Position numbers and translations under genes: made by a program
Shown: positions 13,018-60,232 of the stretch, piece after piece
Numbering within the stretch: position 1 is the stretch's first letter
Layout: every line of letters begins with the position of its first letter
Notes under the pieces: model-generated
What the model was told of the DNA's origin: nothing
Databases searched by the model: none
What the model saw: only the letters and a program-made list of their open reading frames with translations
Sequence record: MT446386.1
Direction: 5' to 3' (one strand)
From: Escherichia virus TH06
DNA length: 64,000 nucleotides

Positions 13018-13368
13018 ATGCAAAACACATTAAGTGATAACTTAGGGTTTATCGTTTTCTCAGCTCTTGTATTCTTTGGTGGTATGAAGTTTAACGAATA
13101 TCAAACAGACAGCAGTAATCTGGACAAAGAGAAGCACCAGCAAGAGTTAGAGATTGAAAGAAGTAGAGCAGCTGATGAAGTTGCTCAGAGAGTTCTTACC
13201 GGTTTATCTAACTGGAAGAAGAACACGGAAACCGTTTATAAAGAGATGCATTATGAGAAAACTAAACCAGTTTTTTATAATGTCTGCGCTAGTGATGAGT
13301 ATGTCAGCTTGTTCAACGAGCGACAACAGCAGGCAATCAATGCCCTTACCAACAAACCTAAAAGCTGA
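13018..13368 (+). CDS. membrane-anchored coiled-coil protein, i-spanin (Rz)-like architecture
   Basis: Start at ATG 13018 after GGAGA; N-terminal TM LGFIVFSALVFFGGM then charged helical region with late Cys. Confidence 0.4.
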   Translation: MQNTLSDNLGFIVFSALVFFGGMKFNEYQTDSSNLDKEKHQQELEIERSRAADEVAQRVLTGLSNWKKNTETVYKEMHYEKTKPVFYNVCASDEYVSLFNERQQQAINALTNKPKS

Positions 13369-13512
13369 ATGTAGGGTTGACCTACCTCTTTTAGAAAGTG
13401 CTCAAGGAAAAGCACTAGCCACTACGTTGGAGTGGTATCAGGACCAGTACACAGAATGTGCTGCTAATCACAATGGATTGTTAGAAGCTCTGAAAGAGCG
13501 TGGAATAGAATA

Positions 13513-13513
<1 letters not shown>
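13253..13513 (+). CDS. putative lipoprotein in +1 frame overlapping the 3' part of the previous gene, o-spanin (Rz1)-like
   Basis: MRKLNQFFIMSALVMSMSAC lipobox-like signal, Pro-containing mature part with Cys; overlapped arrangement. Confidence 0.3.
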
Positions 13514-25003: not shown

Positions 25004-26056
25004 TTAGTTTGCTCCAAATGCCCCTAAGACACCACCTAAGATATTACTACCTGCTGTGGATAACCAGTTAGACTGACCTCTCTGTTGAGAAAGATTAGAA
25101 CCTCCAATCATAGGTCCAGCCATTCCAGATTGCCCACCTGAGTTGTTATAGGAACTCCAAGCATTCTGAGTCTGTTGATTAGGAGAGAAAGCACCCATAC
25201 GACCTGCAATACCTAAACCAGTGATACCAGCACCTAGGAGCTGTTGTCCAGTATTAACACCCGGAGCAGCATTCTTAATTGTATACCCAGCCATTGGGCT
25301 TACACTATTTAATACATTAAGTTGGTTGTTAAGCTGATTCCACCCATACTGCTGAGAGCCAATAGCGTTCTGCCAATTAATATCAGCTTGAGCTTGGGCT
25401 TGTTGCTGTTGTAGATTACCAGCCATGAGTTGATTCTGGATAGCTTGTTGAGTTGCCTGAACACCTTGAGCACCTAGGTTGAGATTCTGTCCAGCCAATC
25501 CTGACTGAGCACCAAGTAAACCTCTCTGGAAGTTTTGGTCTTGTTGAAGAGCACTGATTCCCATATTCTTGCCACTGATAGTACGAGCTAAGTTTGTATT
25601 AGCACTGTTCAGAGCAGCACCTTGAGCAGCAGCTCTACGGAGAGAGCCTGAATCAGAACCATTTCCGAGGGATACATTGGAAGCTGCCTTACTAGTCGCT
25701 TGAGCAAGAGCTGAGTTATTCAATCCTTTACTAAAGTTATTAACACCATCAGCAGTTAGACCACCACCATTGACAATATTCTGATACTGCTGTGCAAGAG
25801 AGTTTAATTGGTCCAACCCTTGCTGTGTACGAGGCGTGTACATATCAGCCAATTGCTTCTGAGTAGTAGAAGCTGCTAAGTTGTTCAGAGCACCCTGTTG
25901 GTTGCCATTAAACCCAGCCAGTTGTTGGGAGATGAATCCCGGATCGTTGTTCTGCATATTCTGAGCATTAGCAACAATCTGCTTCAGCAGGGCATCAACC
26001 TGAGAGGAAGGGGCCACTGTGGTTTTGCTAGAAGCTGATTTTCCAAATAAAGACAT
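25004..26056 (-). CDS. Q/N/G-rich low-complexity virion protein (350 aa)
   Basis: Paralog-like to ORF 24023-24991. Confidence 0.45.
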   Translation of the reverse strand: MSLFGKSASSKTTVAPSSQVDALLKQIVANAQNMQNNDPGFISQQLAGFNGNQQGALNNLAASTTQKQLADMYTPRTQQGLDQLNSLAQQYQNIVNGGGLTADGVNNFSKGLNNSALAQATSKAASNVSLGNGSDSGSLRRAAAQGAALNSANTNLARTISGKNMGISALQQDQNFQRGLLGAQSGLAGQNLNLGAQGVQATQQAIQNQLMAGNLQQQQAQAQADINWQNAIGSQQYGWNQLNNQLNVLNSVSPMAGYTIKNAAPGVNTGQQLLGAGITGLGIAGRMGAFSPNQQTQNAWSSYNNSGGQSGMAGPMIGGSNLSQQRGQSNWLSTAGSNILGGVLGAFGAN

Positions 26057-26075
26057 AAGTCCTCCTTAAAGATTA

Positions 26076-26858
26076 TTACTTTACACCAATGCTAGCCAGA
26101 CGTCTGAGCACTGCTTGTGTTTGTGGACTGTACTGAGAACCTGCTGCATGTGGTGCACTTGCCCTCTGAACTGTTTGAGAAGTGGGAGGTTTACCAGCAA
26201 GCATAGCAGCTACCCCTAATACTGCATTACCAAAGTTCTGTTGAGGTTTCTGATTTTCGCCTTCCTGCACTTCATCAGAGTAAAACTCTACTGGATTTCC
26301 ACCTAAAGCACCTGTCTTAGAAGCAGCAATCTCTGCCTGAGTTGGAGCTTGTGCGGCCTTCTCTCTATCTAACAAGTCAGGACTAAACTGATTGACTGGT
26401 TGAACAGCTTGCAAAGCTCCAACAGGGTTAGCAATCTGAGAAGCTGCATCACCATAGAAAGGAAGAAAGTGTTTGTTGTTCATTGAGTCAAGGGCTTGAG
26501 GTGTAAATCCCTTTTTACCAGCGAACATTTGCTTAGCACCACCGATACCTTCTGAGTAACCAACCATTGCTTTCTTAACATCACCATTAAAAGCCTTTAA
26601 GTTATCTCTAATATAACGAGCACCCATATCAATATTCTTTGCTGGGTCAAGTCTGTCTTCTAGTTTGTAACCGTAATCTTTAGCCAACCCTTTACTAATC
26701 TGCATTAAACCTACAGGACCAGTTCCAGAAGCCACTGTAGGACGACCACTAGACTCTCTTTGGATTACAGCATGAATCAAAGCAGCAGGAATCCCATACT
26801 TCTTTGAAGCCTGTTGAACCATTGGGTCTAGTTCTTCAATACCCATTCTAATTGACAT
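26076..26858 (-). CDS. lytic transglycosylase (SLT domain), virion-associated
   Basis: QRESSGRP...ASGTGPVGLMQIS matches the SLT catalytic region (E-S...GLMQ). Confidence 0.65.
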   Translation of the reverse strand: MSIRMGIEELDPMVQQASKKYGIPAALIHAVIQRESSGRPTVASGTGPVGLMQISKGLAKDYGYKLEDRLDPAKNIDMGARYIRDNLKAFNGDVKKAMVGYSEGIGGAKQMFAGKKGFTPQALDSMNNKHFLPFYGDAASQIANPVGALQAVQPVNQFSPDLLDREKAAQAPTQAEIAASKTGALGGNPVEFYSDEVQEGENQKPQQNFGNAVLGVAAMLAGKPPTSQTVQRASAPHAAGSQYSPQTQAVLRRLASIGVK

Positions 26859-26867
26859 AATAACTCC

Positions 26868-27902
26868 TTATTGTATACTCCTGAATATTTTCCTAGCATC
26901 TAATATCGGAATGCTTAATCCGAGAGCACCACCCCCTCCTAAATCGTATTGGTCACTCCAAGAGTAAATCATCCTACCGAAACCTGTGCTGAAAGAAGAG
27001 CCATTCATCATGTGAGATCTTGTGTGTTGAAAATACCAACCACTAGTCCTGCCTCTTATTGCTCCGGCTCCGTAAGATAGTGGTATCATTGGATAGGCCA
27101 GAGATGTGTTACCACCACTCATAGGCATAAATCCCTCAACACTAAAAGGGGTTCTATATGTAGAAAATACACACTGATACCCATTTGGAGAAAAGATATT
27201 TAAACCTCCATTATGAGTCGGTACTCCAGAACCATCACAGAAGACGGCAATTCTAACACCGCCAATGGATCCTGTTTGGTTTGTGTTACCATTATCATGA
27301 GACCTGTTCTGGTACACATAAACAACCCTATTGGATGGATTGTATAGAAGCCCTGCTCCTCCGTTACTCCAATTTGCGTAGACAGTTGCTCGGCTCATAT
27401 CAAAACCACCAATATCTGGTATTTGAAGAGAACCATTTATGTCACCTTCCCAAGCCCAAATACATTGACCAACAACTCCAGAATCAGAGATTGAGAAATA
27501 GTCAGCAGAGTTGGAGAATGTGATTCCATAGTTCCTATTAGCTCTAGGCCATATTTGATACACATTAAAAGCCATATCAAATATCCAACCGTTTACGTTA
27601 TAGTCCATAGTAACTCTGAAGGTTGAGTTATTAATAACAGATATGTCAGTTATCCAATATACATCAGATGTTAAATTGGGAGGTATGTATCTCTCCCAAA
27701 CAACAGACCCTGTTGGAACTATAACTATCTGACCACTACCATCCCAACCACTTATAGGCAAGTCACAGGTATTTCCACTAAAAGAGAAATTCCCACTGAC
27801 CCTATTTCTGAGTTGAGGGAATGTGCTACCACTATCAATATAAATATCAGCAGGGGCCGCTGGACCCGGACCAACCGGGCGTGTCCATATTCCATATGCC
27901 AT
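26868..27902 (-). CDS. virion structural protein (344 aa)
   Basis: Track ORF in late block. Confidence 0.4.
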   Translation of the reverse strand: MAYGIWTRPVGPGPAAPADIYIDSGSTFPQLRNRVSGNFSFSGNTCDLPISGWDGSGQIVIVPTGSVVWERYIPPNLTSDVYWITDISVINNSTFRVTMDYNVNGWIFDMAFNVYQIWPRANRNYGITFSNSADYFSISDSGVVGQCIWAWEGDINGSLQIPDIGGFDMSRATVYANWSNGGAGLLYNPSNRVVYVYQNRSHDNGNTNQTGSIGGVRIAVFCDGSGVPTHNGGLNIFSPNGYQCVFSTYRTPFSVEGFMPMSGGNTSLAYPMIPLSYGAGAIRGRTSGWYFQHTRSHMMNGSSFSTGFGRMIYSWSDQYDLGGGGALGLSIPILDARKIFRSIQ

Positions 27903-27903
27903 G

Positions 27904-28872
27904 TTACCAACTCCCTATTCTTATGCGAAGAGTTCCACTCCCATCATAAAAATCTATTCTATTACCATTCATCCACAACTGAGAACCACCTGTACCACCC
28001 ATAACAAAATCACCACCAACAGTAAGTCTCCAGTTAGAACCCCACATAGAGCCAGCAGTAATCTTATCCGCTGACAAGTTCTGAATCTGAGCATTGGAGA
28101 TGGATACGTTATCGATCTGTGCCCATTGGATTCTAGCGTTAGCAATCTGAGCTGTTGTGATATTGACATTCTTTATATCAGCAAATTCCATCCTAGCTCG
28201 CCCACCCTCAAACACGAAGGGAGTATTCCCAGAGCTACCATCACCAACAATAAATTTGTTAGCTGTTACTTGGAATTGACTGTTTGTACCATTATTAGTT
28301 AACTTGACCCCAGCATATCTTCCGTTGACTGTAGAGTTAATACCCCACGTAGCTTCATACTCAGAGAGTTTCATATACTGAGAAAGGCTTCCGTTGATAT
28401 TTTGTAGTTCTGTCTGAACAAGAGCAATCTCTTGACCTTGATCGTTAACAATACCTTCTACTGTCTGAATTTTAGTTGTGTTACCTTCGATGCTGGTCTT
28501 AAAACCAGATACAGTGCTTTCTAGCTTCACAGGGGGTTGAACAGAATTATCCCAAATGTCCTCAGTGGACAGGTTCCCCATCTGGGTTTGGATATCTGCA
28601 ATAGCTGTTTCTATCTCTGTAGTAATTCTATTCTCAAGCTCATCAAATTGTAGATTCATTGCATTAAGAGCTTTAATACGAACATCAATCTCTTCGTGAA
28701 TTTCATCTATAGCTTGGAACATTTGGTTAGTAGCTGTGCTAACTTTTTGTAATTCATCATACACGGCTACGTTATATGTTTCTGTGTCCTGTACATTATT
28801 GAGAAACCCAACGTTGTACGGGAGTGTGGTGTTATTGCGACCAGTGTTCTTACGAAAACCACCTGCACCCAT
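27904..28872 (-). CDS. tail fiber-like protein (322 aa)
   Basis: Start moved to MGAGGFRK after GGAGG; N-terminal coiled coil and C-terminal repetitive N/I/Q-rich region. Confidence 0.4.
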   Translation of the reverse strand: MGAGGFRKNTGRNNTTLPYNVGFLNNVQDTETYNVAVYDELQKVSTATNQMFQAIDEIHEEIDVRIKALNAMNLQFDELENRITTEIETAIADIQTQMGNLSTEDIWDNSVQPPVKLESTVSGFKTSIEGNTTKIQTVEGIVNDQGQEIALVQTELQNINGSLSQYMKLSEYEATWGINSTVNGRYAGVKLTNNGTNSQFQVTANKFIVGDGSSGNTPFVFEGGRARMEFADIKNVNITTAQIANARIQWAQIDNVSISNAQIQNLSADKITAGSMWGSNWRLTVGGDFVMGGTGGSQLWMNGNRIDFYDGSGTLRIRIGSW

Positions 28873-32758: not shown

Positions 32759-33250
32759 TTAATATTTACCTTCGGTGTAAAGATTAGCTTCTGCAACTCT
32801 TCTATTATGAAGACCCTGACTTCTCTGCTTCTCTCCCTTGACCGTTATTTTATCCCAACGAAGAAATTCGGAATAAACATCCCCCTTAACATCTCCATTG
32901 ATTACTTTCCTTAACTTAGATGTGCTCAAAGCACCACTGCCAACGTTGAAGTTGAAAGAAGTGAGTGCATCAAACTCATGAACTAGTAAAGGAACCTTTA
33001 TGTTCTTCTGAGTAGCACGAACAGAGTCTTGTGTGTCTCTATCTAGCAGAGCTAGACAATCCTCTATAGAATACGTTAATCCTTGTCTAACCGGATAACC
33101 ATTCATATCGCGCGTAGCCCCTACACATATAGTCCAGATACCTGCGGAATCTTTATAAGCCTTGGTTCTCATACCCTCATGCTTCATGATGAATTCCATT
33201 CCAGCTGGGCTTAAGTTTAGTTGTACAGGTGGCAATGCGGCGTTATCCAT
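32759..33250 (-). CDS. endolysin, phage lysozyme (GH24-like)
   Basis: HEGMRTKAYKDSAGIWTICVG and FNFNVGSGALSTS resemble the T4/lambda-type lysozyme signature. Confidence 0.7.
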   Translation of the reverse strand: MDNAALPPVQLNLSPAGMEFIMKHEGMRTKAYKDSAGIWTICVGATRDMNGYPVRQGLTYSIEDCLALLDRDTQDSVRATQKNIKVPLLVHEFDALTSFNFNVGSGALSTSKLRKVINGDVKGDVYSEFLRWDKITVKGEKQRSQGLHNRRVAEANLYTEGKY

Positions 33251-33279: not shown

Positions 33280-33498
33280 TTAAGGTAGTATCTTTCTCAG
33301 AGCGTTAGATTCAGCATCAGGACAAATAACAACTAGATTATTTTGAATGGTTCGCTGCTTACATTGAGAACTAAGTTTCTCTACTGGAGCAGGTGCTGTA
33401 ACTAATGGATGAACTGCGCTTACAGGGATTGCAGTAGATACCACGACTCCTGCACCTAAACAAACTAAACCATATACAGCTTGTTTCATCATTTTCAT
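33280..33498 (-). CDS. small secreted protein (72 aa) adjacent to endolysin
   Basis: N-terminal signal peptide-like MKMMKQAVYGLVCLGAGVVVSTAIPVSA, Pro-rich mature part with 2 Cys. Confidence 0.4.
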   Translation of the reverse strand: MKMMKQAVYGLVCLGAGVVVSTAIPVSAVHPLVTAPAPVEKLSSQCKQRTIQNNLVVICPDAESNALRKILP

Positions 33499-55644: not shown

Positions 55645-56034
55645 ATGTTGACATTGACTATTTATTATGAGGCAGGGAATCAGCCAACCGCATGTAAGGC
55701 TTTAGTTGCGGATACCGTAATAAATAGAATGGCACAACGAAAACTGACCGCTGAACAGGTGATAAGACAAAAGAACCAGTTTGAGTGGATTCCGGTACTA
55801 TTAAAACAGGAGAAACCTTATAAACGTTATGTAAAGCTGATTCGTGATAAAAATCCGATGACTAAGCAAGCCATTGGAGAAAGCGAGCGGCTAGCTAAAC
55901 GTGCCCTTAAGAAGAATTATGTTCCGCTTTATAGTGGGACTTACTTTCAGAGTAAGAGCGAAGGGGTGCCAAAATGGTATGCCAATCCTATGTATTGTGG
56001 TGATTTAGTGTTCGATAATAGCTCTAGGGAATAA
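55645..56034 (+). CDS. cell wall hydrolase, SleB-like (Hydrolase_2-type) domain protein
   Basis: LTLTIYYEAGNQPTACKALVADTVINRMAQ...QKNQFEW resembles the SleB-family N-terminal signature. Confidence 0.5.
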   Translation: MLTLTIYYEAGNQPTACKALVADTVINRMAQRKLTAEQVIRQKNQFEWIPVLLKQEKPYKRYVKLIRDKNPMTKQAIGESERLAKRALKKNYVPLYSGTYFQSKSEGVPKWYANPMYCGDLVFDNSSRE

Positions 56035-56233: not shown

Positions 56234-56530
56234 ATGACTTTAGAGGTATATAAATTCCTTTTTGTAAGCTGTTTAACTATCAGCGTTATAGGGTTTATTG
56301 TTCTCAGAAACAAAGCAGCAAGCTGGGAGAGAATGTATAAATCTCTAGTCCGAGTGGATGAGATGTATAATGAGAAAGTTAAAGTAACACTTAATGATCT
56401 TATTATGCAAGTTGAAGACAGAAATAAGCGTCTTCAGAACCTCAACCATGAAGTATTACGACTTGCTCGTGCTAATGAAGACTTGCGAGTAGCTATTGCT
56501 AAGCAGCAGGAGATTAACAGTGAAAGTTAA
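56234..56530 (+). CDS. membrane-anchored coiled-coil protein (98 aa)
   Basis: N-terminal TM FLFVSCLTISVIGFIVL then heptad-like region. Confidence 0.45.
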   Translation: MTLEVYKFLFVSCLTISVIGFIVLRNKAASWERMYKSLVRVDEMYNEKVKVTLNDLIMQVEDRNKRLQNLNHEVLRLARANEDLRVAIAKQQEINSES

Positions 56531-57934: not shown

Positions 57935-58288
57935 ATGAGAAGCATGGTTAAAGATTGGGTAACTAAATCAGGTCTTCGTGCTGTGATTATGCACATGAAC
58001 GACTCCCACTTTTGTGGATATGTAGAGCTACCAGACAGCTTAAAACATAAAAACTTCACCGGATATAACGGGAATGAAGAAGTTTGTTATGTAAGTGTTC
58101 ATGGTGGTGTCACATGGCAAGATACCCTTGAAGAGATGGATGGTTTAGATACAATCGGATTTGATTGTGCCCATGCAGGTGATAAGACACGGTTCAACCC
58201 TAACGGGGTTCCAAGAACAGAAACGTTCTGCATCAACGAATGCGAACAAATGGCTGAACAACTAAGAGATCTCGAATCAAATGTCTAA
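57935..58288 (+). CDS. hypothetical protein (117 aa)
   Basis: Internal ATG 57935 of track ORF 57800 after AGAGGTG; track N-terminus overlaps the tRNA-like element. Confidence 0.45.
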   Translation: MRSMVKDWVTKSGLRAVIMHMNDSHFCGYVELPDSLKHKNFTGYNGNEEVCYVSVHGGVTWQDTLEEMDGLDTIGFDCAHAGDKTRFNPNGVPRTETFCINECEQMAEQLRDLESNV

Positions 58289-58457
58289 GCAAACAATCAA
58301 ACATACGCAAGCTGGTTACTCTTATATCAACTCTCCTTGTTGTGGTGCTCGTGTGAATCTGGTTAAGGAAGAGGTTCGTATCGTTCAGCGTGGCGCTACT
58401 GTTGTCCGTTCATGCTGTGTCTGTGGTAATGACATTTTTATCAAAGGTAAAGTATGA
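58281..58457 (+). CDS. small Cys-rich zinc-ribbon-like protein (58 aa)
   Basis: ATG 58281 overlaps upstream stop; SPCCG...SCCVCG. Confidence 0.4.
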   Translation: MSKQTIKHTQAGYSYINSPCCGARVNLVKEEVRIVQRGATVVRSCCVCGNDIFIKGKV

Positions 58458-58885: not shown

Positions 58886-58961
58886 GCGCTCTTAGCTCAA
58901 TGGATAGAGCAGTAGCCTTCTAAGCTATTGGTTACAGGTTCGAGTCCTGTAGGGCGCACCA
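58886..58961 (+). tRNA. tRNA-Arg (anticodon UCU)
   Basis: 76-nt cloverleaf: acceptor GCGCTCT/AGGGCGC, D-arm GCTC/GAGC, anticodon stem GTAGC/GCTAT with loop CTTCTAA, T-arm ACAGG-TTCGAGT-CCTGT, encoded CCA. Confidence 0.8.
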
Positions 58962-59055
58962 CATTTAGGGCTAGTATGGGTGCGGCACCAGAGTTAGTGT
59001 ATCCCTGTTGAGGCAAGTGCTTTTATAACAGTGGGAATTACTTTCTTAGTGAGCT

Positions 59056-59082
59056 TCTGGTTCGATTCCAGATAGTCCACCA
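59056..59082 (+). other. tRNA-like 3' fragment (T-arm TCTGG-TTCGATT-CCAGA plus acceptor-like tail)
   Basis: GGTTCGATTCC T-loop consensus directly downstream of tRNA-Arg; no complete cloverleaf found in the preceding 115 nt. Confidence 0.25.
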
Positions 59083-59101
59083 AATCTAATAGGAGGTAAT
59101 T

Positions 59102-59401
59102 ATGAGTTGGGGTGGTGTAATATCCTTAATCTGTATCTTCCTTGTCTGTGTGGCCCTTACAGGCTGCGTACAGAGCCGCCCTGATGGGTGGTGTGCAGTA
59201 GCAGTGGATGGTATTTGTGTATCTCGCTGGCATTCAGGAAACAAGATTCCTAGTGGTGAGATTGATATGCGCTACAACGGGGCAACCTGCTCTAATGCTA
59301 ACCCTTCTATCAACGAAGAGAAGTCTACGCCAGACAATGTTGTGATCGATACAGCGTTGTGGTGTGGCGGTTCTGTAACAACAACCGGTAAGGAGTGGTA
59401 A
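59102..59401 (+). CDS. Cys-rich lipoprotein (99 aa)
   Basis: Signal peptide with lipobox LTGC (MSWGGVISLICIFLVCVALTGC); strong RBS AGGAGG. Confidence 0.55.
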   Translation: MSWGGVISLICIFLVCVALTGCVQSRPDGWCAVAVDGICVSRWHSGNKIPSGEIDMRYNGATCSNANPSINEEKSTPDNVVIDTALWCGGSVTTTGKEW

Positions 59402-60058: not shown

Positions 60059-60232
60059 ATGAGTTGTTTTGGTGGCGGTGAAGTAGATGACGATGATGAC
60101 ATGGAATCCAACGGTACATGCCCTGATTGTGGGTGTGAGACATTTGATGGGGTGTCAGTATATCCTGCCTGTAGTTACTCACCAGTGATCTGTAAAACAT
60201 GTGGAGATCAGCCTTGTGATCAATCTTGTTAA
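60059..60232 (+). CDS. small Cys-rich acidic protein (57 aa)
   Basis: ATG after TAAGGAG; CPDCGC...CKTCGDQPCDQSC. Confidence 0.4.
   Translation: MSCFGGGEVDDDDDMESNGTCPDCGCETFDGVSVYPACSYSPVICKTCGDQPCDQSC

What the first reader, a model, noticed from the sequence alone, without database searches (positions are those of the whole stretch)
59102..59401. Cys-rich lipoprotein: candidate superinfection exclusion or receptor-masking factor
The 99-aa protein has a textbook lipoprotein signal with lipobox LTGC and eight further Cys in the mature part. Lytic phages such as T5 encode a lipoprotein (Llp) that blocks their own receptor; this gene sits in the early region near the tRNA, not in a lysis cassette, so a spanin role seems less likely.
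Basis: partly seen in the sequence, partly recalled or inferred. Interest (0 to 1): 0.5.

Follow-up and report, generated by a model that had tools for sequence, protein, structure and literature searches.

The report
Phage lipoprotein that likely blocks LptD
This small early gene of a phiEco32-like (Kuravirus) coliphage encodes a lipoprotein related to Rtp45, a phage protein shown to bind the LPS-export channel LptDE from the periplasm so that phages can no longer dock on it; this suggests that LptD is the still unknown final receptor of these phages.

Summary
The ORF is real: 59102-59401 (+), 99 aa, AGGAGG ribosome-binding site, lipobox LTGC. There are 7 Cys in all, and only 4 follow the lipid-attachment Cys22. 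The signal peptide also has no Lys/Arg before its hydrophobic core. The window is a Kuravirus podophage.

The protein is a clear member of Pfam PF24052 (E=8e-35). It matches PDB 9RPS chain D (E=2.8e-14), which is Rtp45, the superinfection-exclusion lipoprotein of siphophage Rtp solved bound to LptDE. The Rtp45 disulfide pair, the hairpin motif and the C-terminal KEW motif are all conserved. It is unrelated to T5 Llp or Cor beyond the signal peptide. It is not the o-spanin, because the phage's own spanin pair lies at 13018-13513.

The same phage also encodes a homolog of the LptD-binding receptor-binding proteins, next to the tail needle gene at 26868-27902 (-): DUF6453, with Foldseek's only significant PDB hit being 9RPT_C. 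This protein is a sharp divergence island in an otherwise 97-100% conserved tail module. That suggests Kuraviruses use LptD as terminal receptor, a link absent from the literature searched. The main caveat is that the SU10 ortholog (gp19) was not detected in virions by mass spectrometry in two studies.

The parts
59102..59401 (+). Gene for the 99-aa prolipoprotein (ortholog of phiEco32 phi32_106 and SU10_0104, both annotated 'putative lipoprotein'); member of the PF24052 / Rtp45 family
59091..59096 (+). Shine-Dalgarno sequence AGGAGG, 5 nt before the ATG
   Evidence: read directly from the sequence
59102..59167 (+). Signal peptide (codons 1-21) plus the lipobox Cys22 codon. This stretch is identical at nucleotide level to phiEco32 and SU10. 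The n-region has no Lys/Arg.
59168..59365 (+). Mature-domain cassette (codons 23-88). It holds the conserved Cys31/Cys39 pair (equivalent to the Rtp45 Cys30-Cys38 disulfide), the hairpin motif W..G..(V/I)P.GE.D.RY.G, and a clade-specific inserted loop bounded by Cys63 and Cys88. Compared with phiEco32 it differs at 21% of nucleotides in codons 23-62 and 50% in codons 63-88, while the flanks differ by 0-3%.
59366..59398 (+). C-terminal GGSVTTTGKEW segment. The (K/R)EW end motif is shared with Rtp45, SE_Oeko, mEp021_81 and the Webervirus homologs.
26868..27902 (-). Inferred functional partner: a 344-aa DUF6453 protein, homologous to the LptD-binding receptor-binding proteins Rtp44 and RBP_Oeko. 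It is the ortholog of phiEco32 gp21 and SU10 gp19.
27907..28872 (-). Tail needle (SU10 gp18 ortholog), encoded immediately upstream of the DUF6453 gene. Its C-terminal part resembles the distal end of GpJ central fibres of T1-like siphophages, so it is an inferred docking site for the DUF6453 protein.
58886..58961 (+). tRNA-Arg(TCT), a landmark directly upstream in the same transcription direction

Best explanation
The gene encodes a superinfection-exclusion lipoprotein of the Rtp45 family.

Proposed mechanism:
- It is made early in infection, exported by Sec, lipidated at Cys22 and cleaved by signal peptidase II.
- There it binds the periplasmic side of the LPS translocon LptDE. As in Rtp45, a disulfide-stapled core (Cys31-Cys39) presents a beta-hairpin (about residues 40-58) that reaches up into the LptD lumen and pushes extracellular loop 4 outward.
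- DUF6453-type receptor-binding proteins can then no longer dock on LptD.
- The benefit is that infected cells, and the envelope debris left after lysis, stop capturing phages that use LptD. This would include the phage's own progeny if, as the DUF6453 gene next to the tail needle suggests, Kuraviruses use LptD as terminal receptor.

What is shown: homology to Rtp45 and family membership; conservation of the structural motifs; the presence of the cognate RBP family in the same genome; the position in the early gene cluster.

What is inferred: processing and sorting; binding to LptDE; exclusion activity; LptD as the receptor of this phage.
For: - Family membership: Pfam PF24052 at E=8e-35, 119 bits against a cut-off of 27, over the full length. 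Rtp45, SE_Oeko and mEp021_81 fall in the same family.
- Match to a solved structure: phmmer against the PDB gives 9RPS chain D (Rtp45) at E=2.8e-14. From that alignment, 19 of 35 residues are identical over the core RPDGWC...RY.G.
- Known mechanism of Rtp45: it binds LptD beta5-8 from the periplasm, between LptE and LptM. It has a Cys30-Cys38 disulfide and a hairpin in the lumen, and it displaces EL4 by up to 20 A (PMC12685063).
- Conserved features: in a 22-sequence family alignment the lipobox Cys, Gly29, Cys31, Cys39 and Gly60 are invariant, and the hairpin and C-terminal KEW motifs are shared.
- Genomic context in siphophages: in Rtp, Oekolampad, mEp021 and SU57 the homolog sits next to the DUF6453 RBP gene downstream of gpJ. 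That RBP family is reported as specific for LptD-targeting phages (PMC8594841).
- The same RBP family is in this window at 26868-27902 (-): tblastn E=1.6e-15 to Rtp44, PF20051 at 91 bits, and an AF2 model at pLDDT 85 whose only significant Foldseek hit in the PDB is 9rpt_C (E=2.5e-11, TM 0.80).
- That RBP homolog is 61.6% identical to phiEco32, while the needle, nozzle, short fibre and transglycosylase are 97-100% identical. This is the pattern of a host-range determinant.
- The mature part of the lipoprotein is likewise an exchanged cassette between identical flanks.
- The gene lies in the early cluster, which in phiEco32 is transcribed from sigma70 promoters. T5 llp is likewise expressed early.
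- Unlinked lipoprotein and RBP genes also occur in Klebsiella Weberviruses.
- Circumstantial: cross-resistance between Kuravirus SU10 and siphophage SU57 was reported, and SU57 carries the LptD-type module.
Against: - No experiment exists on any Kuravirus member of the family.
- In what was read of the Rtp45 paper (abstract, term matches, results section 8, discussion), the evidence for Rtp45 is structural; no in vivo exclusion assay was seen.
- The n-region of the signal peptide lacks the usual positive charge, so export efficiency is uncertain.
- The gene is 31 kb from the RBP homolog, unlike the tight RBP+SE module of siphophages.
- SU10 gp19, the DUF6453 ortholog, was not detected in virions in two mass-spectrometry studies that did detect the three-copy tail needle. 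Self-exclusion at LptD is therefore not secured.
- The published models for these phages assume O-antigen as the initial receptor (long fibres) and LPS core, by analogy with T-even phages, as the terminal receptor of the short fibres.
- An inserted 26-residue Cys63-Cys88 loop is absent from Rtp45 and could change the binding partner.
- AF2 could not model the protein (pLDDT 41).
Confidence: 0.7

Rival explanations
1. Competitor exclusion only. The lipoprotein blocks LptD to keep LptD-dependent siphophages (Rtp-like, Dhillonvirus and others) out of a cell already infected by the Kuravirus. The Kuravirus itself does not use LptD, and its DUF6453 protein has another, non-virion role.
For: SU10 gp19 (DUF6453) is listed 'no / no' among the virion proteins, and it is missing from a shotgun proteome that found every other late structural protein. 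The lipoprotein and DUF6453 genes are unlinked, and their alleles are not strictly coupled: SGF2 has 94% lipoprotein identity but only 62.5% RBP identity to the window. Kuraviruses and LptD-type siphophages share hosts and sewage habitats.
Against: The DUF6453 gene sits in the late tail operon, directly after the needle gene. It diverges like a host-range protein while its neighbours are nearly identical. The needle C-terminus resembles the GpJ end on which such RBPs are thought to dock. A 38-kDa protein present in 1-3 copies could be masked by the 38.5-kDa major capsid protein in gel-band mass spectrometry.
Confidence: 0.17
2. Host-takeover factor. By plugging LptDE, the protein's main role is to stop LPS/O-antigen insertion or to alter outer-membrane biogenesis. 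This could freeze the surface, reduce decoy vesicles or prime the envelope for lysis. Any phage exclusion would be a side effect.
For: In the Rtp45 complex the hairpin occupies the LptD lumen. The gene is in the early cluster, whose genes are described as likely host-takeover functions. These phages depend on O-antigen, which LptDE exports.
Against: In siphophages the family travels with the RBP as a receptor-specific module, which argues for a function tied to adsorption. No evidence was found that Rtp45 blocks LPS transport. LptM stays bound in the complex.
Confidence: 0.08
3. It is the outer-membrane (o-)spanin of the lysis system, separated from its i-spanin.
For: It is a small outer-membrane lipoprotein with periplasmic cysteines. 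A 98-aa protein with a transmembrane segment and a coiled coil lies 2.6 kb upstream at 56234-56530.
Against: The curated Kuravirus overlapped spanin pair (Kongari 2018 supplement) is present in the window at 13018-13368 and 13253-13513, at 94% and 84% identity. The protein is homologous to Rtp45, whose partner is LptDE. The related siphophage SU57 carries a separate, annotated unimolecular spanin.
Confidence: 0.02
4. The protein is not processed as a lipoprotein. Because the n-region is uncharged, it stays as an inner-membrane-anchored or cytoplasmic small protein with some other function.
For: The n-region MSWGG has no Lys/Arg. This is unique to the Kuravirus clade within the family.
Against: The hydrophobic core and the lipobox are invariant across the clade. 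The mature domain retains all family motifs, including the disulfide pair, which needs the periplasm to form. From general knowledge of E. coli signal peptides, an uncharged n-region slows export but does not abolish it.
Confidence: 0.03

Closest known systems
Rtp45, superinfection-exclusion lipoprotein of siphophage Rtp (PDB 9RPS chain D; Pfam PF24052)
   Same: True homolog: phmmer E=2.8e-14, same Pfam family. It shares the lipobox, the Cys pair equivalent to Cys30-Cys38, the hairpin motif and the C-terminal KEW end. The predicted target (periplasmic face of LptDE) and the predicted effect (blocking RBP docking) are the same.
   Different: The host phage is a podovirus, not a T1-like siphophage. 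The gene stands alone in the early region, 31 kb from the RBP homolog, instead of abutting it downstream of gpJ. The mature part is 77 aa against 57 aa, because of an inserted loop closed by a second Cys pair (63/88). The signal peptide has no positive charge.
SE_Oeko (bas18_0026) of Dhillonvirus Oekolampad, and the lipoproteins of mEp021 (gp81), SU57 (gp44) and Klebsiella Weberviruses
   Same: Same family. The Webervirus homologs are also unlinked from the DUF6453 gene. Some members (P0010, P0011, P0020) carry the same extra Cys-bounded insertion.
   Different: All are from siphophages. None has been tested functionally except through the Rtp45 structure.
T5 Llp (lytic conversion lipoprotein; PDB 8A60, 7QJF)
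   Same: It appears to work the same way: a small lipoprotein expressed early during infection that binds the periplasmic face of the phage's outer-membrane receptor and prevents RBP binding.
   Different: No detectable homology outside the signal peptide. The target is FhuA, and the mechanism is long-range allostery rather than physical loop displacement.
Cor (T1, phi80, N15, HK022)
   Same: A small outer-membrane lipoprotein encoded near the tail fibre genes and annotated as a superinfection-exclusion protein. From established knowledge, it excludes FhuA-dependent phages.
   Different: T1 Cor reaches only 17.7 bits against PF24052 (cut-off 27). The hhalign match covers only the 26 residues of signal peptide and lipobox.
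o-spanins (lambda Rz1 type)
   Same: Small periplasm-facing outer-membrane lipoproteins with cysteines.
   Different: The phage has its own overlapped i-/o-spanin pair elsewhere. There is no adjacent i-spanin, and there is no sequence relation.

Membership tests
PF24052 / Rtp45-type superinfection-exclusion lipoproteins | Scores above the Pfam gathering threshold over the full length | tested here: met
   119.1 bits against a cut-off of 27, residues 3-99 matching profile 1-80/80. Rtp45 scores 128 bits, SE_Oeko 76 and mEp021_81 107.
PF24052 / Rtp45-type superinfection-exclusion lipoproteins | N-terminal lipoprotein signal peptide with a lipobox Cys | tested here: met
   LTGC with Cys22. The Cys is invariant in all 22 aligned members. 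Caveat: the n-region has no Lys/Arg.
PF24052 / Rtp45-type superinfection-exclusion lipoproteins | Cysteine pair corresponding to the Rtp45 Cys30-Cys38 disulfide | tested here: met
   Cys31 and Cys39 align to Rtp45 Cys30 and Cys38 and are invariant in the family alignment. Disulfide formation itself is inferred.
PF24052 / Rtp45-type superinfection-exclusion lipoproteins | Conserved hairpin segment (W..G..VP.GE.D.RY.G), which in Rtp45 enters the LptD lumen | tested here: met
   Query VSRWHSGNKIPSGEIDMRY against Rtp45 VAKWKNGVVVPAGEVDVRY; 10 of 19 identical, the rest conservative.
PF24052 / Rtp45-type superinfection-exclusion lipoproteins | Gene adjacent to a DUF6453 RBP gene downstream of gpJ (the 'LptD-type RBP locus') | tested here: not met
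   The gene stands alone in the early region. The DUF6453 homolog is present but 31 kb away, in the tail operon. The same unlinked state is seen in Weberviruses. This is a feature of the siphophage locus rather than of the protein family.
PF24052 / Rtp45-type superinfection-exclusion lipoproteins | [quoted passage not shown] | not testable with these tools
   Shown only for Rtp45 by cryo-EM. AF2 of the query failed (pLDDT 41), and the authors report that AF3 complex predictions for this family are wrong.
T5 Llp family | Sequence similarity of the mature domain to Llp | tested here: not met
   hhalign of the family profile against Llp aligns only the signal peptide and lipobox (26 columns). Llp has no Pfam hit and gives no tblastn hit in the window.
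Cor family | Sequence similarity of the mature domain to Cor | tested here: not met
   T1 Cor scores 17.7 bits, below the cut-off of 27. The hhalign match is restricted to residues 1-26.
Two-component spanin, o-spanin subunit | Encoded within, overlapping or next to an i-spanin gene, as the phage's only such pair | tested here: not met
   The curated Kuravirus i-/o-spanin pair is at 13018-13368 and 13253-13513. There is no i-spanin next to 59102.
DUF6453 (PF20051) LptD-binding RBPs (for the partner gene 26868-27902) | Pfam membership and the same fold as RBP_Oeko (9RPT_C) | tested here: met
   91 bits against a cut-off of 25. phmmer against 9rpt_C gives E=1.9e-9 over residues 56-334. Foldseek gives E=2.5e-11, TM 0.80 (target-normalised), and no other hit below E=0.05.
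DUF6453 (PF20051) LptD-binding RBPs (for the partner gene 26868-27902) | Presence in the virion at the tip of the central fibre or needle | tested here: inconclusive
   Against: SU10 gp19 was not found by MS in two studies. For: the position after the needle gene, the divergence-island behaviour and the needle's GpJ-like C-terminus.

The most novel reading that the evidence does not exclude
Kuravirus/Gordonclarkvirinae podophages use the essential LPS translocon LptD as their terminal receptor. The DUF6453 protein (SU10 gp19 ortholog, 26868-27902) would dock on the GpJ-like tip of the tail needle, and the early lipoprotein would be the cognate, but genetically unlinked, exclusion factor. On this reading, a complete LptD recognition-and-exclusion module has moved between T1-like siphophages and prolate podophages. 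The unresolved 'terminal receptor' step of the SU10 nozzle-formation model would then be an LptD-needle interaction.
Probability: 0.4. Interest if true: 0.75.

Novelty: new member of a known kind. Interest (0 to 1): 0.6.

Why it matters
The terminal receptor of the phiEco32/SU10 group is unknown. These phages are often isolated, are resistant to restriction-modification systems and are relevant to therapy. Current models assume that, after the long fibres bind O-antigen, the short fibres bind conserved LPS-core motifs as the terminal receptor, by analogy with T-even phages.

Finding both halves of the LptD system in these genomes turns that open question into a few simple experiments. The two halves are an Rtp45-type exclusion lipoprotein and a DUF6453 receptor-binding protein encoded right after the tail needle.

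LptD is essential and constrained, so it is an attractive receptor for therapeutic phages. The BASEL study argued this, although the Rtp45 study found that resistant lptD mutants kept largely normal outer-membrane function, so 'phage steering' via LptD may be hard.

The gene would also predict cross-exclusion between Kuraviruses and LptD-dependent siphophages, which matters when phage cocktails are designed. Cross-resistance between SU10 and SU57 has already been reported.

Finally, it provides a natural variant of Rtp45 with an extra disulfide-closed loop, for structural work on LptDE inhibition from the periplasm.

Tried and rejected
- **AF2 model of the lipoprotein.** Run from the 10-sequence alignment; it was unusable (mean pLDDT 41), so no fold search was run on it. 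The Rtp45 authors also report that AlphaFold fails on this family.
- **Word-indexed protein search.** It found only 9 close relatives. The exhaustive profile search found only 17 clusters at 50% identity. The family is small and restricted to phages.
- **Weak PDB matches.** Designed armadillo-repeat proteins appeared in the PDB search. They come from many sub-threshold repeats against a low-complexity C-terminal stretch and were discarded.
- **o-spanin reading.** Considered seriously, because my own lipobox scan found no other credible lipoprotein ORF in the window. It was rejected after the curated spanin sequences located the true pair at 13018-13513. My scan had missed that o-spanin because of its thresholds.
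- **Llp and Cor homology.** Rejected.
- **Promoter and terminator scan around the gene.** Nothing above chance.
- **tRNA-like stretch at 58966-59084.** Rfam and ARAGORN do not call it. Its fold is only mildly better than shuffles (z=-2.2).
- **Allele coupling between lipoprotein and RBP across Kuraviruses.** Eight genomes appear in both tables. Most are concordant, but SGF2 is not, so this was not used as evidence.

Full report
**1. The observation**

The ORF at 59102..59401 (+) exists and encodes 99 aa: MSWGGVISLICIFLVCVALTGCVQSRPDGWCAVAVDGICVSRWHSGNKIPSGEIDMRYNGATCSNANPSINEEKSTPDNVVIDTALWCGGSVTTTGKEW. An AGGAGG sequence lies 5 nt before the ATG, and an in-frame TAG 12 nt upstream excludes a longer form. 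Residues 6-19 form a strongly hydrophobic core that ends in the lipobox L-T-G-C at Cys22.

There are seven Cys in all, at positions 11, 16, 22, 31, 39, 63 and 88, and only four of them follow the lipobox Cys. The signal is also not quite textbook, because the n-region MSWGG has no Lys/Arg.

tRNA-Arg(TCT) lies 140 nt upstream at 58886-58961.

**2. Genomic setting**

The window is from a phiEco32-like podophage (Kuravirus, Gordonclarkvirinae). The 4 kb around the gene match NJ01, KBNP1711, MN05, ES17, SkaterBoy_Bas90 and others at about 90% identity. The ortholog in phiEco32 is phi32_106, 'putative phage lipoprotein', also right after a tRNA-Arg. In SU10 it is SU10_0104.

The gene lies in the early cluster, which in phiEco32 is transcribed from sigma70 promoters at the start of that cluster.

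The lysis genes are elsewhere. Holin and endolysin sit among the tail genes at 33283-33498 and 32762-33250 (-). The overlapped i-/o-spanin pair curated by Kongari et al. for phiEco32, NJ01 and KBNP1711 is present at 13018-13368 and 13253-13513 (+), at 94% and 84% identity. The spanin reading is therefore refuted.

**3. What the protein is**

- It matches Pfam PF24052 'Phage_lipoprotein' over its whole length (E=8e-35, 119 bits, cut-off 27) and phrog_4281.
- Against all PDB sequences, the only real hit is 9RPS chain D, 'Phage lipoprotein' (E=2.8e-14).
- That chain is Rtp45 of siphophage Rtp, solved by cryo-EM in complex with Shigella LptDE and LptM (Dunbar et al. 2025, PMC12685063).
- According to that paper, Rtp45 binds the periplasmic side of LptD near strands 5-8, sandwiched between LptE and LptM. 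It has a Cys30-Cys38 disulfide. It sends a hairpin up the LptD lumen, which displaces extracellular loop 4 by up to 20 A, so the phage RBP cannot bind.
- The query's Cys31 and Cys39 align with that disulfide. The hairpin segment is the best conserved part: VSRWHSGNKIPSGEIDMRY against VAKWKNGVVVPAGEVDVRY.
- In a 22-member alignment, the lipobox Cys, Gly29, Cys31, Cys39 and Gly60 are invariant, and most members end in a (K/R)EW motif.
- The Kuravirus proteins, and three others (P0010, P0011, P0020), carry an insertion bounded by a further Cys pair (63/88), presumably a second disulfide.
- The family is small: 17 clusters at 50% identity among 1.8 billion representative proteins.

**4. Relation to other exclusion lipoproteins**

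T5 Llp (my recalled sequence was verified against 8A60_B) has no Pfam family. It aligns with the family profile only over the signal peptide. T1 Cor scores 17.7 bits, below the cut-off of 27, again only over the signal peptide and lipobox. The protein therefore works like Llp and Cor but belongs to the Rtp45 family.

**5. Context of the homologs**

In Rtp (rtp45/rtp44), Oekolampad (bas18_0026/0025), mEp021 (gp81/gp80) and SU57 (gp44/gp43), the lipoprotein gene abuts a gene for a protein of about 320 aa, downstream of gpJ.

That protein family (PF20051, DUF6453) is the RBP of LptD-targeting small siphophages. [quoted passage not shown] The BASEL study matched this locus type to LptD dependence. 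A 2026 preprint reports four unrelated RBP families, each specific for FhuA, BtuB, LptD or YncD.

In Klebsiella Weberviruses the lipoprotein gene stands alone among replication genes, with the DUF6453 gene about 10 kb away. Unlinked arrangements therefore exist in siphophages too.

**6. The unexpected partner in this window**

Searching the window with Rtp44, mEp021_80 and RBP_Oeko hit one place, 26868-27902 (-), at E=1.6e-15, 1.1e-13 and 2.8e-10.

- The 344-aa product is a DUF6453 member (91 bits) and matches phrog_1265 end to end.
- It matches 9RPT_C by sequence (E=1.9e-9 over residues 56-334).
- An AF2 model (pLDDT 85, pTM 0.85) has exactly one significant Foldseek hit in the PDB: 9rpt_C (E=2.5e-11, target-normalised TM 0.80). 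The next hit is at E=0.05.
- The gene follows the tail needle gene directly (27907-28872; SU10 7Z4B chain EA) and precedes the ejection transglycosylase. It corresponds to SU10 gp19 and phiEco32 gp21.
- Against phiEco32 it is 61.6% identical. The short fibre (100%), nozzle (99.7%), needle (99.1%), transglycosylase (96.9%) and the next two ejection proteins (99%) are almost unchanged. Only the two long-fibre proteins diverge as much (65-66%). This is the behaviour of a host-range determinant.
- The needle's C-terminal roughly 280 residues resemble the distal end of the GpJ proteins of T1, Rtp, Oekolampad and mEp021, including the terminal ...G(R/K)hxhGxW (43.5 bits to T1 J 892-1166). PHROG tail-fibre and tail-tip profiles also match. 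This similarity is modest and partly coiled coil, so I treat it as suggestive only.

**7. Mosaic structure of the lipoprotein gene**

Compared with phiEco32 and SU10:

| Codons | Region | Nucleotide differences |
|---|---|---|
| 1-22 | signal peptide | 0% |
| 23-62 | conserved core | about 21% |
| 63-88 | inserted loop | 50-55% |
| 89-99 | C-terminal end | 3% |

. The mature, target-binding part therefore behaves as an exchangeable cassette between fixed flanks. Over the whole gene dN/dS is about 0.35, consistent with a functional protein.

**8. Evidence against, and limits**

- SU10 gp19 is listed as not detected in virions in the cryo-EM study. It is also absent from the 2014 shotgun proteome, which detected gp3, 5, 6, 8, 9, 11-13, 16-18 and 20-24, and even traces of non-structural proteins.
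- A protein of about 38 kDa in one to three copies could hide under the 38.5-kDa major capsid protein in gel-band analysis. The shotgun result, however, is a real objection to a virion location.
- Published models place O-antigen as the first receptor (long fibres) and, by analogy with T-even phages, LPS-core motifs as the terminal receptor bound by the short fibres.
- No paper in the searchable library links Kuraviruses with LptD or discusses DUF6453 beyond a gene table.
- Circumstantially, Koonjan et al. reported cross-resistance of ECOR57 to SU10 and the siphophage SU57 after exposure to either phage alone. I find that SU57 carries the LptD-type module, with its lipoprotein 74% identical to Rtp45. 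Surface-glycan changes could explain that result equally well.

**9. Conclusion**

This is an early-expressed receptor-masking lipoprotein, but of the Rtp45 family, with LptDE as the predicted target (confidence about 0.7).

It is a new member of a known kind. The new aspects are the podophage host, the stand-alone early-gene position, the extra disulfide-bounded loop and the uncharged signal n-region.

The most interesting consequence is the testable proposal that Kuraviruses use LptD as terminal receptor through the gp19-type DUF6453 protein. I rate that at about 0.4 because of the negative proteomics.

Noticed in passing
window 26868-27902 (-): A 344-aa DUF6453 (PF20051) protein, homologous in sequence and fold to the LptD-binding RBPs of small siphophages (Rtp44, RBP_Oeko/9RPT_C). 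It is encoded right after the tail needle gene. It is a divergence island: 61.6% identical to phiEco32, against 97-100% for neighbouring tail genes. Its SU10 ortholog gp19 was not detected in virions by mass spectrometry.
   Followed up: yes
window 27907-28872 (-): The C-terminal roughly 280 residues of the tail needle (SU10 gp18 ortholog) resemble the distal end of GpJ central tail fibres of T1, Rtp, Oekolampad and mEp021, including a shared extreme C-terminal G(R/K)hxhGxW motif. The score is modest (43.5 bits) and the match is partly coiled coil.
   Followed up: partly
window 58966-59084 (+): A stretch of about 120 nt between tRNA-Arg and the lipoprotein RBS ends in a tRNA-like T-arm, acceptor 3' strand and CCA (CTGGTTCGATTCCAGATAGTCCACCA). 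ARAGORN and Rfam do not call it. In phiEco32 the 3' end of tRNA-Arg itself occupies the same position before the same RBS. It may be a degraded or interrupted second tRNA gene.
   Followed up: partly
window 59102-59398 (+), compared with L001 and L008: The lipoprotein gene is mosaic relative to phiEco32 and SU10. The signal-peptide codons and the last 11 codons are (nearly) identical at nucleotide level. Codons 23-62 differ by about 21% and codons 63-88 by 50-55%. This indicates cassette exchange of the mature domain.
   Followed up: yes
window 13018-13368 and 13253-13513 (+): An overlapped i-spanin/o-spanin pair, 94% and 84% identical to the curated KBNP1711 spanins. It lies in the middle-gene region, far from the holin (33283-33498) and endolysin (32762-33250), which sit among the tail genes on the other strand.
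   Followed up: yes
L007 (SU57, MT511058) 25276-26483: Siphophage SU57, used together with Kuravirus SU10 in a published two-phage chemostat study that reported cross-resistance, carries the LptD-type module: a DUF6453 RBP and a lipoprotein 74% identical to Rtp45. The two phages may therefore compete for the same receptor.
   Followed up: partly
window 55645-56034 (+) and 56234-56530 (+): A SleB-like cell-wall hydrolase (129 aa) lies in the early region. Next to it is a 98-aa protein with an N-terminal transmembrane segment and a coiled coil. The PHROG and RefSeq label for the latter, 'DNA helicase', looks like a misannotation. The roles of both are unknown.
   Followed up: no
window 60059-60232 (+) and 58281-58457 (+): Two small Cys-rich early proteins. 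One is a 57-aa acidic protein with 9 Cys (ortholog of phi32_103). The other is a 58-aa protein with CC...CC.C motifs, possibly a zinc ribbon.
   Followed up: no
L004 (Klebsiella phage vB_KpnS-VAC11) 3995-4222: Weberviruses keep a PF24052 lipoprotein between a Holliday-junction resolvase gene and a Dam methylase gene, about 10 kb from their DUF6453 gene. The RBP/exclusion pair is therefore also unlinked in some siphophages.
   Followed up: partly
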